Below, piece by piece: positions 2,240 to 7,747 of a stretch of 12,127 bases of DNA; the first letter of the stretch is position 1, and the number at the start of each line of letters is the position of its first letter. Below the pieces are notes generated by a model. It had not been told where the DNA came from, made no database searches, and was given only the letters and a program-made list of their open reading frames with translations. Position numbers and translations under genes: made by a program. The stretch lies in the IMG/VR virus record IMGVR_UViG_2645727673_000001; one strand, written 5' to 3'. This DNA is from a virus. Its lineage: Duplodnaviria > Heunggongvirae > Uroviricota > Caudoviricetes.

Positions 2240-2569
2240 CTATGCCACGACCTGTTCAAAATCTGCCGTTATGGTTACCCACAGCGCCCCCACGCTTGCC
2301 GACCATTTACGACAAACCACCCTAATCGGCTTCCAGTCATAAGGTGGCGTCCACTGAAATGCGCGGACGCCACCGTGCCGTTCCAGAAAGGCTTTTAAAG
2401 ATGGGTGTTCACATTTACGAACACGTATCGTCACGCTGTAAGTCGACAACTGGTTATTCAGTCCCGCCGCACGACGCTGTTCATAACCATCGCCCAGCTT
2501 CACTGTCACCACTTTCGGTTCTGATACCACATTCATATCCGGGCGCACTTTCCAGTGAAACGTCTCCAT
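2240..2569 (-). CDS. M: Minor tail protein M
   Basis: 109-aa ORF METFHWKVRPDMNVVSEPKVVTVKLGDGYEQRRAAGLNNQLSTYSVTIRV ... ADFEQVVA, same length and clear similarity to lambda gpM. Its ATG overlaps the H stop codon (TAATG). Confidence 0.95.
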   Translation of the reverse strand: METFHWKVRPDMNVVSEPKVVTVKLGDGYEQRRAAGLNNQLSTYSVTIRVRKCEHPSLKAFLERHGGVRAFQWTPPYDWKPIRVVCRKWSASVGALWVTITADFEQVVA

Positions 2570-5500
2570 TACCGATATGCTCCACTTAACCGACCACCAT
2601 CACGGGCCTGCTGTTGCATAAAGTCCGCTGCCGCTTTTTTCCCGAGGTCATAAACCACCTTCAGGGCAGCCGGACCTATCTGCCCGTTCGTGCCATCGTT
2701 ATTGATCTCGATGTTGTACTGCGGGGCAAACATCGCCATACCTGAACCACCAATATCCGCCACAACCCCCAGCTTACCGTCAGCACCACGACGCAGTGGC
2801 AGAATGGCTTCAGGTCCAGCTTCCCCCATCACACCTGCACCTTTTGCAAAAGCAAAAAACGTCGGACGGTTAACCACCGTGCCACTGTAGCGACTCAAAT
2901 CAGCAGACTGATAAACACCACCATCAGCATTGGGCGTCACACTGGCAGTTGCTGCACTCCCCCAGCCAAACGCCGAACCAATCCCCTTAACTGCCTGCAT
3001 CATGGACATCTGGGCCATGATTTTTGCCAGATCAGAAAGGAGCGAGGCGGTAAAAGATTTGAAGTTCAGTTTTCCGGTAGTACAGAACGTTGCCAGTGCA
3101 TTACCTGCACTGTTAAATGCCGCTGTAAGCATCTGCTCAGCAGTGCCTGCCGCATTATCCGCATCTGCCGTGAAATTCTGAAACGCCCGCATAGCACCGT
3201 TTTTCCAGTTACCCTGAGCAATTTCAAGCTGTTGCCAGTAACGGCGATTCTCATTCAGTTGTCGGTTCAGGCTCTCCGTCAGCGCCTGCTCGGCCTTTCT
3301 GTAGTCATCCGTGTTATATGTCCCTTTCTGCTCACTATCCCGCCTCAACTGCTCCAGCTGTTGCTGGTATTTCTGGCGAAGACTCAGTTGTACCTGATAT
3401 CGCTGCCGCTGCTGATCACCCATACCCACCGTGGCGATATCCAGGTCATGTTGCTGACGCTGAGCGCGCTCTTCTTCAGCCAGTTGACTGGTCAGCTGAA
3501 TTGTTTTTTTCTTCAGCTCGTTGAGTGCCGTCTGTTTCTGAAGCTCCTGCTGTTTTACATCCAGCAGCGTCAGTGCCTGAATCAGTTCATCTTTACGGGC
3601 CAGCACACTCTTTTCATCTGCCGTCAGTTTTTTCCCGTCCAGGTCGCTGATGCGCTGCTGCAGAGCCAGAAGCTGTTTATGCGCTTCTGTCATCTTTTCA
3701 GTGGCAATGCCTGCTGACTGTCTTGCAGCAGCAATCTGCCCTTCCACCTGTGCCTGTTGCTGACTGTACTGCAGCAATAACCGGGTGGCCTCATCATTAC
3801 GGGTTTCGCGTGTTTTTTTCTTACCGGATGCCAGGGCTTTCTCGTAACGTTCATTTTCACGTTGTATCGCCGCATCCCTGACAGCCTGGTCGGCGTACTG
3901 CATGGCATTAATACGCGCAATTTCACGCTGATGTCGTGCTGCTTCCGTTTCATTCATCCGGTTCAGTGCAGCATTTTCAGCATTACGTCGTTTCTGTTGC
4001 TCCTGATAATTCCGCTCTGCCTGCTCTTTTGCATCCTGCAAATCCTTCTGGCGTTTTTTCTCCTGAAGATCGTTAAGACGCTGCTGATCGTATTCAACCT
4101 GAGAAGATGATGCCGTCCAGGGGAGTCTTTTCGCCCGCGACACTTTCTCCTGTAAAGCGGCAATCTGTTCATCCAGCGAGTCTTCACGACCAATATTCAT
4201 GGCCGCATCCCAGAAACGACTCCACAAATCAGACAGATACTTCAGCGTACTGCCAAGCGCATTGAGGTTATTATCAATATCCGCAGTACGCCGACCGGTT
4301 TCCTCTGCCAGTGCAGACATGGCTATCCGTGCAGCATCACTGGACCGTCCCTGATCCCCAAGGACACGTATCTGCTCAAGCTGAGTGGCAGTAAGAAAAT
4401 GCAGCTCATTGTCCAGAGCCTTCGCGGCATTTACAGGATCATCCTTCAGCCGCTTAAACTGATTTATGGTATCGCTGACCGACTGGCCAACCGATCGCTC
4501 CATCTGTGCGGCAGCTCTCGCCACCATACCGATATCGTTTCCACGAAATGCACCACTCCCCACCACCTGCGCCAGCGCACCGGCTGCAGCATGTTGCGTG
4601 ATACCATTCCCGGAAATAGCACGACTAAGCGTCCACAGCTGCCCGGCAGTGACTCCGGCATAATGCCCCGTCAGCGACAACTGGCGGTTAAATTCTTCCC
4701 CCTCCTTCTGACCGTCATACCAGGCTTTACCCAGACCATAGACGGCCGCGGCAATACCGCCAATAACCCCGCCCAGCATCATGCCTTTCGGTGACATCAG
4801 TGTGTCTATCCATCCGGCACGGTTAGCCAGCGTTATCCCGGATCCCCTCAGCGCACCTAAATTGCCGCGAGCCAGTTCACCTATCAGAACGCCTATCTCC
4901 TGGCGGGCCGCTGCACTTTTCAGACCCAGCGAATGCGTGGCTTTTCCTGCCTGCTCCATTTTGCGGATATACACTTCTGCAGCACTGCTTACCCCCAGTT
5001 GGGCAGCCTTAGCACGAAGCAACTCAGAAGAAGAAAGATTCTGGCGGGTTGCCTGCTCTTTAAGCTGACGGATAAACGCCACTTTCTGTCGGGTAGCCTC
5101 TTCCTCAGCCTGTGTAAGAACACGGGTTTTCGCCGTAACCTCAGAAATCAGCGCCAGATAATCCTGCTGACCAATCCCGCCACTGTGTCTGGCCTGTCGG
5201 ATCTGCTGCTGAATACGCTGTAATTCCTGCAGCCCCGCACTGGCCTGTTTCACACTGTCAATCTGACGATAAAACGCAGCAGCCGCTTTATCCTGAGCCT
5301 CCGCCAGAGCCATGGCCTGCGCCTGTTCATCGCGCATTTTCTGGCTCAGCGCCTCCATGCGCTGGCGGGTTTTCTCCACCTCGCGAGCCATGCGTTCATG
5401 AGCCTGTGCGTTCTTCTCCACCGTCTGCGCATGGACGGAGGCGGCTGTTGCAGCCGAAGAAGCCGCCTGCGTTGTCTGCCGGGCGGCCTGAGTCTGACGC

Positions 5501-5643
5501 TCCATAAAACGCTGCATACGGGCAGAAGACCGTTCTGCATCGCTGGCGGCACCATTCAGAAGGTTTTTGATACGGGGAATTTCATTTTTAAACTCTGCCG
5601 CATCAATCCCCAAATCAATGACCAGGTTGGCTATCTGGTCCAT
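2569..5643 (-). CDS. H: Tail tape measure protein H
   Basis: Long ORF with a Q/A/E/R/K-rich central coiled-coil-like region. N-terminus MDQIANLVIDLGIDAAEF and C-terminus NNDGTNGQIGPAALKVVYDLGKKAAADFMQQQARDGGRLSGAYR align with the lambda gpH termini. Start set at the ATG at 5641-5643 (GGAGGT 7 nt upstream); the track start at 5673 is a TTG extension. About 1024 aa. Confidence 0.95.
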   Translation of the reverse strand: MDQIANLVIDLGIDAAEFKNEIPRIKNLLNGAASDAERSSARMQRFMERQTQAARQTTQAASSAATAASVHAQTVEKNAQAHERMAREVEKTRQRMEALSQKMRDEQAQAMALAEAQDKAAAAFYRQIDSVKQASAGLQELQRIQQQIRQARHSGGIGQQDYLALISEVTAKTRVLTQAEEEATRQKVAFIRQLKEQATRQNLSSSELLRAKAAQLGVSSAAEVYIRKMEQAGKATHSLGLKSAAARQEIGVLIGELARGNLGALRGSGITLANRAGWIDTLMSPKGMMLGGVIGGIAAAVYGLGKAWYDGQKEGEEFNRQLSLTGHYAGVTAGQLWTLSRAISGNGITQHAAAGALAQVVGSGAFRGNDIGMVARAAAQMERSVGQSVSDTINQFKRLKDDPVNAAKALDNELHFLTATQLEQIRVLGDQGRSSDAARIAMSALAEETGRRTADIDNNLNALGSTLKYLSDLWSRFWDAAMNIGREDSLDEQIAALQEKVSRAKRLPWTASSSQVEYDQQRLNDLQEKKRQKDLQDAKEQAERNYQEQQKRRNAENAALNRMNETEAARHQREIARINAMQYADQAVRDAAIQRENERYEKALASGKKKTRETRNDEATRLLLQYSQQQAQVEGQIAAARQSAGIATEKMTEAHKQLLALQQRISDLDGKKLTADEKSVLARKDELIQALTLLDVKQQELQKQTALNELKKKTIQLTSQLAEEERAQRQQHDLDIATVGMGDQQRQRYQVQLSLRQKYQQQLEQLRRDSEQKGTYNTDDYRKAEQALTESLNRQLNENRRYWQQLEIAQGNWKNGAMRAFQNFTADADNAAGTAEQMLTAAFNSAGNALATFCTTGKLNFKSFTASLLSDLAKIMAQMSMMQAVKGIGSAFGWGSAATASVTPNADGGVYQSADLSRYSGTVVNRPTFFAFAKGAGVMGEAGPEAILPLRRGADGKLGVVADIGGSGMAMFAPQYNIEINNDGTNGQIGPAALKVVYDLGKKAAADFMQQQARDGGRLSGAYR

Positions 5644-5965
5644 AACGCACACCTCCGGAAATACCTTCTCCAAGATGCATCAGTTCTTCGTCCGTTCGCT
5701 CCGGTATCCCGTTCTCTTCCGGTAAAAGGCTGAAATCAGCCACCGCAGCATCACTGCTGCCGGACACCATTCTCACGATCAATGCCTTCAGCGAGGCAAA
5801 CTGCGCATCCATCCACACATCACTGAAGCTCTGCATCCGGAAATAATCGCCCCACTCACCAAGCTCAGTGGCCGACATTTCCGACAGCATCCGCCGCCAG
5901 TCTGCCCGCCGGAACTCCCGGGCAAGCCGCATGACAAACTGCATTTCCCGCGTCAGGACTTTTCC
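5615..5965 (-). CDS. T: T segment of the tail assembly chaperone G-T, expressed as a -1 frameshift extension of G
   Basis: The ORF at 5615-5944 lies in the -1 frame relative to G and overlaps the G 3' end. That frame is open upstream through the heptamer GGAAAAG (minus strand, about 5959-5965), one base different from the lambda slip site GGGAAAG as I recall it. Position between G and H matches lambda. The 5' boundary is approximate (slip site). Confidence 0.75.
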   Translation of the reverse strand, partial: GKVLTREMQFVMRLAREFRRADWRRMLSEMSATELGEWGDYFRMQSFSDVWMDAQFASLKALIVRMVSGSSDAAVADFSLLPEENGIPERTDEELMHLGEGISGGVRYGPDSQPGH

Positions 5966-6342
5966 GGCGTCAGCGCCTCATGCTCATCATCCCCGGCATT
6001 ATCAATGGCCCCCATACCGCTCAGCGACAGAACCATCTCCGCCCCCGCACCCAGGGCATCATACGACCATGTTGTAATAACGGATGCGCAAAGCGTCTCT
6101 ACATCCTTAGACTGATCCGCATTCCACAGTGAGCGGGAAACCAGCCAGGCATTGATATCCATCCCCATCCGCAGAAAAGCAATCTGTCGTTCAGCCTCCG
6201 GCAGTTCTCCCTCCCCGGCATCAAACTTTGCCGTTCGCTGCTGAACAAACGCCAGATATTCAATTCTCTGCAGCCCGGACAGCTCACTGAGCACCACGGA
6301 CTGTTTTTCATAATTAAACGTGCCCTGTTTCAGAAACATCAT
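5953..6342 (-). CDS. G: Tail assembly chaperone G
   Basis: ORF ending EHEALTPEKS-stop, located between V and T/H as in lambda. Start set at the tandem ATG ATG (6337-6342) with GGTGGAG just upstream; the track start at 6381 is a TTG that runs through the upstream hairpin. Confidence 0.85.
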   Translation of the reverse strand: MMFLKQGTFNYEKQSVVLSELSGLQRIEYLAFVQQRTAKFDAGEGELPEAERQIAFLRMGMDINAWLVSRSLWNADQSKDVETLCASVITTWSYDALGAGAEMVLSLSGMGAIDNAGDDEHEALTPEKS

Positions 6343-6355
6343 GTTCTCCACCTGC

Positions 6356-6379
6356 AAAAAAGCCCCGAATAACCGGGGC
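6356..6379 (-). terminator. Rho-independent terminator-like hairpin between V and G
   Basis: Minus strand reads GCCCCG-GTTATT-CGGGGC (perfect 6-bp GC stem, 6-nt loop) followed directly by TTTTTT, then the G ribosome-binding site and start 13 nt later. Confidence 0.5.
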
Positions 6380-6391
6380 AAATGATGAGTA

Positions 6392-6760
6392 TCATCCTGT
6401 TAACCTGCGGCGCTGACAGCCACCGTATTTGATACGAAACGCGCAGACTTCACCGGAGTCGAACAACTGAACCAGTTTTTTCTGCCCGCTGTCACCCGGA
6501 CGCCAGGCCAGCGTCGCCGAAGTATCACCGACGGATTTCTGCCCCTGGGTTGTCGTTTTCCAGTCTGCATCTTCATCATCGAGATAAGTGTCATCTTCTG
6601 CATCAGCGGTCATTTCGCCAGGTTGCAGATCCTTCACCATCGCAAGACGCAGCCAGTCAGTGTCCGATAAAGGGTTCGCAAACGCATCGCCCTTGCCGGT
6701 GTACATCCAGAACGTCGTTCCCGCACCTTTCGTTTTTGCCAGTGGATTTGGTGTGGTCAT
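6392..6760 (-). CDS. V: Major tail tube protein V homologue, short form (122 aa): N-terminal domain only, possibly truncated
   Basis: [86 protein letters not shown] aligns with the first ~110 residues of lambda gpV. After FRIKY the sequence diverges ([10 protein letters not shown]) and stops. AAGGAGGT ribosome-binding site 4-5 nt upstream of the ATG at 6758-6760. Confidence 0.8.
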
Positions 6761-7172: not shown

Positions 7173-7747
7173 CGGGTCAGCCATAACCTCAGTTGTTGTT
7201 TCAGTGCATACCCCAGCTGTTTCGGCATTTCCGCAGCAATGATGCGGTCGCGGGCATCTTCAAATGCCTGTGTCAGCGGTCCGGACAGCGGGATTTTCAC
7301 CACATCAATGGGGTAACGATTTTTGCCATCAATACGCCGCATCACATGCCAGCGACCATTCGCCAGTTGCTGAATAAACGCATCCCGGAAAAGATATTTA
7401 CCCACCTTCAGCACACTGCCACGGTACTGCAGTTTTCCACCACGCCGGGCCAGTCTGACCCGGGCTGTCCCCAGCTTAATGGCGGGCAGATTGCCCCGGT
7501 TAACGCGGATCCTGGCCGTCATTTTTCCTGACGGACTGGCTTTAAACACCCGGACACGCTGACGTACCAGTTTCAGGGGGATCCCTTTCACCTGGTTATC
7601 TCCCGCAACGGTATTCCCGGCAACCTGCCGGGTGGCAACCGAGACCGCTTTCTGTGCCACACGGTTTATCGCCCATGCGCTGGCCTGTGGCACCATACGG
7701 GTATCAAGGCTGTTCAGATTGCGGATGGCATTCTCAAGCCCCTTCAT
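7169..7747 (-). CDS. Z: Tail completion protein Z
   Basis: 192-aa ORF MKGLENAIRNLNSL ... [63 protein letters not shown], same length and strong similarity to lambda gpZ. AGAGGTG 5 nt upstream of the ATG. Confidence 0.93.
   Translation of the reverse strand: MKGLENAIRNLNSLDTRMVPQASAWAINRVAQKAVSVATRQVAGNTVAGDNQVKGIPLKLVRQRVRVFKASPSGKMTARIRVNRGNLPAIKLGTARVRLARRGGKLQYRGSVLKVGKYLFRDAFIQQLANGRWHVMRRIDGKNRYPIDVVKIPLSGPLTQAFEDARDRIIAAEMPKQLGYALKQQLRLWLTR

What the first reader, a model, noticed from the sequence alone, without database searches (positions are those of the whole stretch)
5944..5980. G-T programmed -1 frameshift with a variant slippery heptamer (GGAAAAG)
T lies in the -1 frame relative to G and overlaps its last codons, as in lambda. 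The only heptamer positioned to give a G-T fusion is G GAA AAG, nine nt before the G stop. After a -1 slip the P-site Glu tRNA would re-pair with GGA using a G-U wobble and the A-site Lys tRNA would re-pair AAG to AAA. A GGGAAA sequence does occur nearby but lies downstream of the G stop codon, so it cannot be the site.
Basis: partly seen in the sequence, partly recalled or inferred. Interest (0 to 1): 0.45.

Follow-up and report, generated by a model that had tools for sequence, protein, structure and literature searches.

The report
Known phage tail G-T frameshift site
This is the ordinary lambda-type tail-chaperone G/GT programmed -1 ribosomal frameshift of an E. coli mEp460/cdtI-like prophage; it uses the heptamer GGAAAAG, a variant already annotated as the slippery site in phages N15, phi80 and LLS.

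Summary
A lambda-G homologue (5953..6342) is followed by a lambda-T homologue in the -1 frame (open 5977..5615). The two frames overlap for only 25 nt. The one shift-prone in-frame heptamer there is G GAA AAG (5965..5959), and the GGGAAA nearby lies after the G stop. The frameshift reading is well supported by comparison. T-frame protein homology to Gifsy-1/-2, Fels-1, N15, phi80 and lambda starts at the residue right after the heptamer, upstream of any conserved start codon. The heptamer occupies the same position as lambda's GGGAAAG. It is unchanged in 66 of 73 distinct homologous junctions, while neighbouring synonymous sites vary freely. Its first base is G after five different preceding codons.

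It is not new. GenBank records of N15, phi80 and LLS mark GGAAAAG as the -1 slippery sequence, and Gifsy-1/-2 T is annotated as a frameshift product. The module sits in about a third of complete E. coli genomes, where G and T are annotated as separate genes. No downstream RNA structure was found. A Shine-Dalgarno-like GAGG 10 nt upstream recurs in the closest sub-clade and may stimulate the shift; this is untested. The neighbouring tail-tube gene V carries a 383-bp frameshifting deletion.

The parts
5953..6342 (-). G-like tail assembly chaperone ORF (129 aa from the ATG at 6342; 128 aa from the second ATG at 6339, which PGAP uses). Stop TGA at 5955..5953.
   Evidence: Pfam PF06894 Phage_TAC_2, E 1.8e-39; ORF list; PGAP 'phage tail assembly chaperone G' in a 100% identical E. 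coli locus.
5959..5965 (-). Slippery heptamer G GAA AAG (G-frame phasing), the proposed -1 shift site.
   Evidence: Same heptamer at the homologous position in Gifsy-1, Gifsy-2, Fels-1, N15, HK225, phi80, LLS and mEp043. Annotated as the slippery sequence in N15, phi80 and LLS. Present in 66 of 73 unique homologous junctions.
5615..5977 (-). -1 frame (T) open reading frame. After the shift it is translated from 5959 (GTC = Val) to the stop at 5617..5615. The GT fusion is join(6342..5959, 5959..5615), 242 aa (241 from the second ATG).
   Evidence: Pfam PF06223 Phage_tail_T, E 5e-15; frame analysis; fusion sequence; T-frame homology from the first residue after the heptamer.
5978..5980 (-). TGA stop in the -1 frame; it sets the upstream limit of the window in which a productive shift can occur.
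5976..5979 (-). Shine-Dalgarno-like GAGG, 10 nt upstream of the heptamer (GAGGTG in the commonest allele of close relatives). Possible stimulator; inferred only.
   Evidence: An SD-like 4-mer lies 9-12 nt upstream in 5 of 6 divergent lineages of the 'stop one codon after the heptamer' group. Background is 0.04-0.16 per position. It is absent from most N15/phi80/lambda-type junctions.
5942..5944 (-). ATG used as the T start in the mEp460 and PGAP annotations. It is not conserved (Leu in all six compared phages) and lies directly after GGGAA.
   Evidence: annotations; alignment column 6 is M only in the window.
5943..5949 (-). GGGAAAT, the decoy lambda-like sequence. It lies downstream of the G stop and is not a shift site.
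2569..5643 (-). Tape measure gene (lambda H-like), whose start overlaps the end of T. Context that defines the G/T position.
   Evidence: Pfam TMP_2, Tape_meas_lam_C, TMP_4.
6392..6760 (-). Truncated V-like major tail (tube) gene upstream of G. Context only.
   Evidence: Pfam Phage_TTP_12; 383-bp deletion relative to mEp460.
6362..6379 (-). Intrinsic-terminator-like hairpin followed by a T-run, between V and G.
   Evidence: annotated as a rho-independent terminator in mEp460.

Best explanation
Ribosomes translating the G tail-assembly-chaperone gene mostly stop at UGA (5955..5953) and make gpG. A small fraction slip back one nucleotide on G GAA AAG (5965..5959), with tRNA-Glu in the P site and tRNA-Lys in the A site. 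tRNA-Lys re-pairs perfectly from AAG to AAA. tRNA-Glu re-pairs from GAA to GGA with a G-U at the middle position. Translation then continues in the T frame and yields a roughly 242-aa G-T fusion (...ALTPEK-VLTREMQF...). By analogy with lambda, the G part binds the tape measure protein and the T part recruits the tail tube protein, and a high G:GT ratio is needed for tail assembly.

Shown here: the gene identities, the frame geometry, the single possible site, positional homology with lambda's GGGAAAG, and strong conservation of all seven bases, including three synonymous positions.

Inferred: that slippage actually happens, its efficiency, tandem rather than A-site-only slippage, and any role for the upstream GAGG.
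For: (1) Pfam identifies G and T between tube and tape measure genes.
(2) The overlap is 25 nt and holds one shift-prone heptamer.
(3) In Gifsy-1, Fels-1 and Gifsy-2 (68-70% nt identity) the C-terminus of G is hypervariable with indels, yet CCG GAA AAG YCC TGA is retained.
(4) In the T frame, GGA AAA GTC aligns with lambda GGG AAA GTG. Across 16 named phages the homologous site is GGAAAAG (9), GGGAAAG (3), AAAAAAG (2) or CCCAAAA (2), so slipperiness is conserved and the encoded dipeptide is not.
(5) Of 73 unique junctions from 262 loci, 66 carry GGAAAAG. Flanking G-frame third positions have 1.4-1.9 bits of entropy. The base before GAA is G after GCG, GTG, CCG, CTG and GAG codons. Coding cannot explain this; P-site re-pairing can.
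(6) T-frame homology begins at the residue after the heptamer. Invariant E5 and F8 precede any conserved start codon, and the window's ATG is Leu in all six other phages.
(7) GenBank curators mark this heptamer as the -1 slippery sequence in N15, phi80 (joined gpG-T CDS) and LLS, and annotate Gifsy-1/-2 T as a frameshift product.
(8) A_AAG is the most shift-prone tetramer in E. coli (Sharma 2014, PMC4066793). The lambda G/GT biology is summarised in PMC5009743 and PMC3296357.
Against: I found no direct protein evidence for a GT product made from GGAAAAG in any phage. In a reconstituted E. coli system G GAA AAG served as the poorly slippery control: it gave mainly 0-frame product under conditions where G GGA AAG gave more than 70% -1 product at low EF-G (Peng 2019, PMC6924986). 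The A_AAG tetramer without a stimulator is barely above background in vivo (about 0.15% against 0.11%) and needs a pseudoknot to reach 5.6%. No significant or conserved downstream structure exists here (z = -0.75 and -0.10; consensus -3.45 kcal/mol with no covariation). Efficiency may therefore be well below lambda's roughly 4%. The heptamer itself is not statistically rare in the window. This prophage copy has a disrupted V gene, so the site may no longer be under selection in this genome.
Confidence: 0.85

Rival explanations
1. T is made as a free protein by independent initiation, or by termination-reinitiation, at the ATG at 5944, 8 nt after the G stop. This is how mEp460 and NCBI PGAP annotate it. 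No frameshift would be needed.
For: An ATG exists at 5944..5942, close to the G stop, and is used as the T start in mEp460 and in RefSeq E. coli genomes.
Against: That ATG is Leu (CTG or CTT) in Gifsy-1, Fels-1, Gifsy-2, N15, phi80 and lambda. Invariant T-frame residues (E5) lie upstream of it. The only purine-rich stretch (GGGAA) abuts the ATG with about 0-1 nt spacing. Free T would not explain conservation of the heptamer's synonymous positions. In lambda the function requires G and T fused (review PMC5009743).
Confidence: 0.07
2. The frameshift occurs, but by slippage of tRNA-Lys alone on A AAG (A-site-only, or P-site slippage while the next codon waits). The first three bases of the 'heptamer' would play no part. 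The product is identical.
For: tRNA-Glu re-pairing to GGA needs a second-position mismatch, which Peng 2019 regard as unfavourable. A_AAG alone supports -1 shifting, and IS3 uses it with a pseudoknot.
Against: The base before GAA is G in all but one of the GAA AAG junctions surveyed, after five different codons. This is a synonymous site in G and is never decoded in the T frame, so it is best explained by P-site re-pairing. Related phages replace the site with canonical tandem-slip heptamers, not with bare A AAG.
Confidence: 0.15
3. Transcriptional slippage by RNA polymerase on the A4 run deletes or adds a base in a fraction of mRNAs and so gives the fusion.
For: The site contains a run of four A.
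Against: From established knowledge, productive transcriptional slippage needs runs of roughly 7-9 or more identical bases; four is far too short. Conservation of the flanking G bases and of AAG over AAA fits a ribosomal mechanism.
Confidence: 0.01
4. In this copy the site is a relic. The prophage is defective and G/T are no longer expressed or selected.
For: The adjacent V gene has a 383-bp out-of-frame deletion that removes residues 113-247.
Against: G, the heptamer, T and the tape measure gene are intact and 99.8-100% identical to viable phage mEp460 and to many E. coli prophages. This rival concerns current use, not what the element is.
Confidence: 0.3

Closest known systems
Phage lambda G / G-T programmed -1 frameshift (G GGA AAG; Levin, Hendrix and Casjens 1993; Xu, Hendrix and Duda 2004, 2013, 2014)
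   Same: Same Pfam families (Phage_TAC_2, Phage_tail_T). Same gene order V-G-T-H. T is in the -1 frame. The shift site is at the same aligned position (T frame: GGA AAA GTC here, GGG AAA GTG in lambda). A-site codon AAG and tRNA-Lys are shared, and there is no evident downstream structure.
   Different: Base 3 of the heptamer is A, not G. The P-site codon is therefore GAA (Glu), and re-pairing has a middle-position G-U instead of a third-position wobble. The G stop follows one codon after the site here and five codons after it in lambda. T is shorter (113 against 144 residues after the site).
N15 genes 14/15, phi80 gpG-T and phage LLS genes 11/12, whose GenBank records mark GGAAAAG as the -1 slippery sequence
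   Same: Identical heptamer, identical phasing (G GAA AAG), homologous position and the same gene family.
   Different: G proteins are only about 35-45% identical. The upstream peptide context is EPVT(A/V)EK rather than (A/D/T/M)-(L/T)-TPEK. The G stop is five codons downstream. There is no SD-like motif 9-12 nt upstream.
Salmonella prophages Gifsy-1, Gifsy-2 and Fels-1 G/T (Gifsy T is annotated as part of the chaperone 'by translational frameshifting')
   Same: Closest divergent relatives (68-70% nt identity). Same ...ACN CCG GAA AAG YCC TGA junction, and an SD-like 4-mer 9-12 nt upstream.
   Different: Different hosts, a hypervariable G C-terminus, and no ATG at the position PGAP uses as the T start here.
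E. coli dnaX -1 frameshift (A AAA AAG with an upstream SD-like element and a downstream hairpin) and IS3 (A AAG plus pseudoknot)
   Same: A-site AAG to AAA slippage of tRNA-Lys. A possible SD-like element at the dnaX-like spacing of about 10 nt.
   Different: No downstream hairpin or pseudoknot. The P-site codon is not fully re-pairable. The SD-like element is only 4 nt in this allele and is untested.

Membership tests
Lambda-type tail assembly chaperone G/GT with conserved -1 programmed frameshift | Two ORFs located between the major tail (tube) gene and the tape measure gene | tested here: met
   Gene order is V' (6392..6760), G (5953..6342), T (5615..5977), H (2569..5643), all on the minus strand. 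Pfam assignments are; the matching RefSeq annotation is.
Lambda-type tail assembly chaperone G/GT with conserved -1 programmed frameshift | Sequence homology to gpG and gpT | tested here: met
   PF06894 E 1.8e-39; PF06223 E 5e-15. 33% identity to lambda G and 37% to lambda T.
Lambda-type tail assembly chaperone G/GT with conserved -1 programmed frameshift | The downstream ORF is in the -1 frame, overlaps the end of the upstream ORF, and lacks a conserved start codon of its own | tested here: met
   25-nt overlap. The start codon is not conserved, and homology extends to the heptamer.
Lambda-type tail assembly chaperone G/GT with conserved -1 programmed frameshift | A slippery sequence in the overlap, in the correct phase, conserved among relatives | tested here: met
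   G GAA AAG at 5965..5959; present in 66 of 73 unique homologous junctions; positional homologue of lambda's GGGAAAG.
Lambda-type tail assembly chaperone G/GT with conserved -1 programmed frameshift | Production of a minor G-T fusion protein (a few percent of G) that is required for tail assembly | not testable with these tools
   Needs protein expression, mass spectrometry or genetics. No published measurement for GGAAAAG was found.
Canonical X XXY YYZ tandem-slippage heptamer | The first three bases are identical, so the P-site tRNA re-pairs at positions 1 and 2 | tested here: not met
   The first three bases are G-G-A. The P-site re-pairing GAA to GGA has a second-position G-U (sequence; discussed in PMC6924986). 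The site works like a tandem-slip site but is not a strict X XXY YYZ motif.
Canonical X XXY YYZ tandem-slippage heptamer | The A-site codon YYZ re-pairs cognately to YYY | tested here: met
   AAG to AAA. Both are read by the single E. coli tRNA-Lys.
dnaX-type stimulated -1 frameshift | An SD-like sequence about 10 nt upstream of the shift site | tested here: inconclusive
   GAGG at 5979..5976 with a 10-nt spacer. It recurs in 5 of 6 lineages of the sub-clade against a background of 0.04-0.16, but the spacing window was chosen after seeing the data, the region is rich in Glu and Asp codons, and the lineages are related.
dnaX-type stimulated -1 frameshift | A stable downstream hairpin or pseudoknot 5-9 nt after the site | tested here: not met
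   Folding z-scores are -0.75 and -0.10. The alignment consensus is -3.45 kcal/mol with a covariation term of -0.04.

The most novel reading that the evidence does not exclude
The GGAAAAG clade compensates for a heptamer that is intrinsically poor in vitro. In the TPEK sub-clade (mEp460, cdtI, Gifsy-1/-2, Fels-1) it would do so with a dnaX-like Shine-Dalgarno element 9-12 nt upstream, which has not been described for G-T frameshifting. Alternatively, these phages assemble tails at a much lower GT:G ratio than lambda. Either case would show how the frameshift set-point is tuned across lambdoid tails.
Probability: 0.2. Interest if true: 0.35.

Novelty: already known. Interest (0 to 1): 0.12.

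Why it matters
It matters little as a discovery. The G-T frameshift is a textbook recoding event, and the GGAAAAG variant is already annotated in N15, phi80 and LLS.

There are two practical points. First, the module occurs in 1,846 of 5,426 complete E. coli genomes. There, and in the mEp460 and cdtI phage records, T is annotated as a stand-alone gene starting at a non-conserved ATG, so the true product, the GT fusion, is systematically missing from protein databases. Second, a heptamer that biochemists use as a 'non-slippery' control (PMC6924986) is the one nature uses most often in this family. This makes it a convenient natural system for asking how much P-site mismatch a low-efficiency programmed frameshift tolerates, and whether flanking sequence compensates.

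Tried and rejected
(1) The genome-contig scan with the G protein returned only 7 near-identical loci, so it gave no diversity.

(2) The first viral-contig scan with an alignment returned 80 loci at 95-100% identity. Diversity came only from re-querying with the N15, Gifsy-1, Gifsy-2, Fels-1 and L263 G proteins.

(4) Downstream stimulatory RNA structure: single-sequence folds are not better than shuffles, and the 16-sequence consensus shows no covariation. Rejected.

(5) Exact look-up of the predicted GT fusion in the protein collection found nothing. The phi80 gpG-T positive control was also absent, so the result is uninformative.

(6) Literature: Xu et al. 2004 is not held. Full-text searches for GGAAAAG with frameshift, slippery, tail or bacteriophage found no open-access paper describing this heptamer in tail genes. 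Only Peng 2019 treats it, as a control.

(7) Transcriptional slippage and +2 shifting were considered and rejected on first principles.

(8) The downstream GGGAAA was rejected as the site: it follows the stop, is out of phase, and is followed by T.

Full report
**What is there.** The genes around the finding run on the minus strand. ORF 5953..6342 (129 aa; 128 aa from the second ATG) is a lambda gpG homologue (Pfam Phage_TAC_2, E 1.8e-39). The -1 frame, open from 5977 to 5615, encodes a gpT homologue (Phage_tail_T, E 5e-15). These two lie between a lambda-type tail tube gene (6392..6760) and a tape measure gene (2569..5643). The region is 99.8% identical to phage mEp460 and about 99% identical to phage cdtI. 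The G-T segment is 100% identical to prophages in many E. coli chromosomes, and 1,846 of 5,426 complete genomes carry a copy.

**Checking the observation.**
- The reverse complement of 5944..5980 reads TGA GGC GCT GAC GCC GGA AAA GTC CTG ACG CGG GAA A in the T frame.
- In the G frame it reads ..GAG GCG CTG ACG CCG GAA AAG TCC TGA.
- The T frame is closed by TGA at 5980..5978, and the G frame ends at 5955..5953. Any fusion-forming -1 shift must therefore occur within 25 nt.
- Of the seven in-frame heptamers there, only G GAA AAG (5965..5959) lets the A-site tRNA re-pair cognately.
- GGGAAAT (5949..5943) lies after the G stop. The predicted junction is ...ALTPEK-VLTREMQF....
GGAAAAG is not rare in itself: the window has five copies against 1.7 expected. 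Its position and conservation carry the weight.

**Comparative evidence.** The Salmonella prophages Gifsy-1, Fels-1 and Gifsy-2 are only 68-70% identical at the DNA level. Their G C-termini are hypervariable with indels (DDSGSEKDTTTPEKS, DDDTSEQDALTPEKP, SDSGNESEDMTPEKS). All of them still keep ACN CCG GAA AAG YCC TGA, with T open in the -1 frame.

I anchored 16 named phages of the family on the T frame and read the homologous site:

| Heptamer | Phages |
|---|---|
| GGAAAAG | window/mEp460, Gifsy-1, Gifsy-2, Fels-1, N15, HK225, phi80, LLS, mEp043 |
| GGGAAAG | lambda, PhiR12_5, an Stx2a phage |
| AAAAAAG | two Stx phages |
| CCCAAAA | two Vibrio phages |

The encoded dipeptide changes (E-K, G-K, K-K, P-K), but the site is always a shift-prone motif ending in a Lys codon preceded by A.

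A wider survey covered 262 loci from IMG/VR and named phages, giving 73 unique junctions. The sample is biased toward the queries I used. It gave GGAAAAG 66, GGGAAAG 3, AAAAAAG 2, AGAAAAG 1 and GGCAAAG 1. Nine loci of one lineage were first scored by a second candidate, GGCAAAA, but they also carry in-phase GGAAAAG.

G-frame third-codon positions flanking the heptamer carry 1.4-1.9 bits of entropy. That table was computed on junctions already selected for GGAAAAG, so the invariance of the heptamer's own three synonymous positions rests on the 66 of 73 count.

The base before GAA is G after five different codons: GCG, GTG, CCG, CTG and GAG. That base is synonymous in G and is never decoded in T. 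Its conservation therefore argues for P-site re-pairing of tRNA-Glu onto GGA, that is, tandem slippage.

An alignment of T-frame translations that start at the last base of the heptamer shows homology from the first residues. E5, F8 and L12-E15 are invariant across the window, Gifsy-1, Fels-1, Gifsy-2, N15, phi80 and lambda. The window's ATG (residue 6) is Leu in all the others. T cannot have a conserved start of its own, so ribosomes must enter its frame at or just after the heptamer.

**Already known.** GenBank marks GGAAAAG as the 'slippery sequence for -1 translational frameshift' in N15 (NC_001901, 10027..10033) and phi80 (FN582354, which also has a joined gpG-T CDS). In LLS (PQ299149) it is marked as the 'minus-one programmed translational frameshift site GGAAAAG'. 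Gifsy-1 and Gifsy-2 T are annotated as parts of the chaperone made by translational frameshifting, with the cdtI proteins cited as similar. The conserved G-T frameshift of tailed phages is reviewed in PMC5009743. The mEp460, cdtI, Ayreon and RefSeq/PGAP records annotate G and T as separate genes. That is an annotation gap, not new biology.

**Mechanism and open points.**
- In E. coli, A_AAG is the most shift-prone tetramer. Without a stimulator it is barely above background (0.147% against 0.112%), and with the IS3 pseudoknot it reaches 5.6% (PMC4066793).
- In a reconstituted system G GAA AAG served as the unfavourable control because tRNA-Glu must accept a second-position mismatch. It gave mainly 0-frame product, whereas G GGA AAG shifted readily at limiting EF-G (PMC6924986). 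Efficiency here may therefore be lower than lambda's roughly 4% (PMC3296357), or flanking sequence may help.
- I found no downstream structure. Folds of +1..+120 and +8..+66 do not beat shuffles (z = -0.75 and -0.10). A 16-phage consensus fold has -3.45 kcal/mol and no covariation.
- Upstream, GAGG lies 10 nt before the heptamer; it is GAGGTG in the commonest allele. An SD-like 4-mer sits 9-12 nt upstream in five of six divergent lineages of the sub-clade whose G stop follows one codon after the site. The codons differ between lineages (catGAGGcg, aAAGGAc, caGAGGAc, cGGAGGct, gCAGGAc). The per-position background is 0.04-0.16.
- The motif is absent from most N15/phi80/lambda-type junctions. 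The spacing matches that of the dnaX stimulator, but the spacing window was chosen after seeing the data, the region is rich in acidic codons, and the lineages are related. I treat it as a hypothesis.
- Both slipping tRNAs (Glu and Lys) carry mnm5s2U34. This is the modification shown to set the lambda G:GT ratio. That it matters here is my inference.

**Rivals.**
- Independent initiation or reinitiation at ATG 5944 is unlikely as the main route. The start is not conserved, no spaced SD precedes it, and the heptamer's synonymous constraint would go unexplained.
- A-site-only slippage gives the same product. The invariant G at heptamer position 1 argues against it.
- Transcriptional slippage on four A residues is implausible.
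- This copy may be a relic, because the neighbouring V gene is broken (see below). That does not change what the element is.

**Verdict.** The novelty rating is 'already known', and interest is low.

Noticed in passing
window 6392..6760 (minus), deletion junction at 6426/6427: The V-like major tail (tube) gene is truncated. Relative to mEp460, 383 bp are missing. The protein is identical for 112 residues and then runs 10 residues out of frame ([10 protein letters not shown]), against 247 aa in mEp460. The listed top E. coli genome matches to the junction are all two-piece and span 504 nt, so those copies are undeleted. This prophage copy is probably tail-defective.
   Followed up: partly
window 5976..5979 (minus); the same spacing in L003, L004, L005, L253 and L269-L274: An SD-like GAGG/AGGA/GGAG lies 9-12 nt upstream of the heptamer in the TPEK sub-clade (mEp460, Gifsy-1, Gifsy-2, Fels-1) despite different codons. 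It is absent from the N15/phi80/lambda group. It may be a dnaX-like stimulator.
   Followed up: partly
window 6362..6379 (minus): An intrinsic-terminator-like hairpin (GCCCCGG TTAT TCGGGGC followed by TTTTTT) lies between V and G. mEp460 annotates it as a rho-independent terminator. It could lower G/T/H transcription relative to V.
   Followed up: no
window 5942..5944; RefSeq locus L268 6899..7228: NCBI PGAP and several phage records annotate T as a separate 109-aa protein starting at a non-conserved ATG. No slippage join is given, although the module is present in 1,846 of 5,426 complete E. coli genomes.
   Followed up: yes
L158 (heptamer at 1299) and L152: Two viral contigs carry variant sites at the homologous position: AGAAAAG (GCA GAA AAG) and GGCAAAG (GCG GCA AAG). 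These may be tolerated weaker sites, defective phages or sequencing errors.
   Followed up: no
L254-L262 (heptamer at about 1275): A distant lineage (G about 35% identical to Gifsy-2 G) has GAG GAA AAG CCG CTG GCA AAA TAG. It carries GGAAAAG and a second possible shift site, G GCA AAA, just before the stop. The AGAGGA here abuts the heptamer with no spacer.
   Followed up: no
window 7324..7472: This stretch does not align with E. coli strain 602354 (L268) but matches mEp460 at 99.9%. It is ordinary lambdoid mosaicism in the tail-completion gene region.
   Followed up: no
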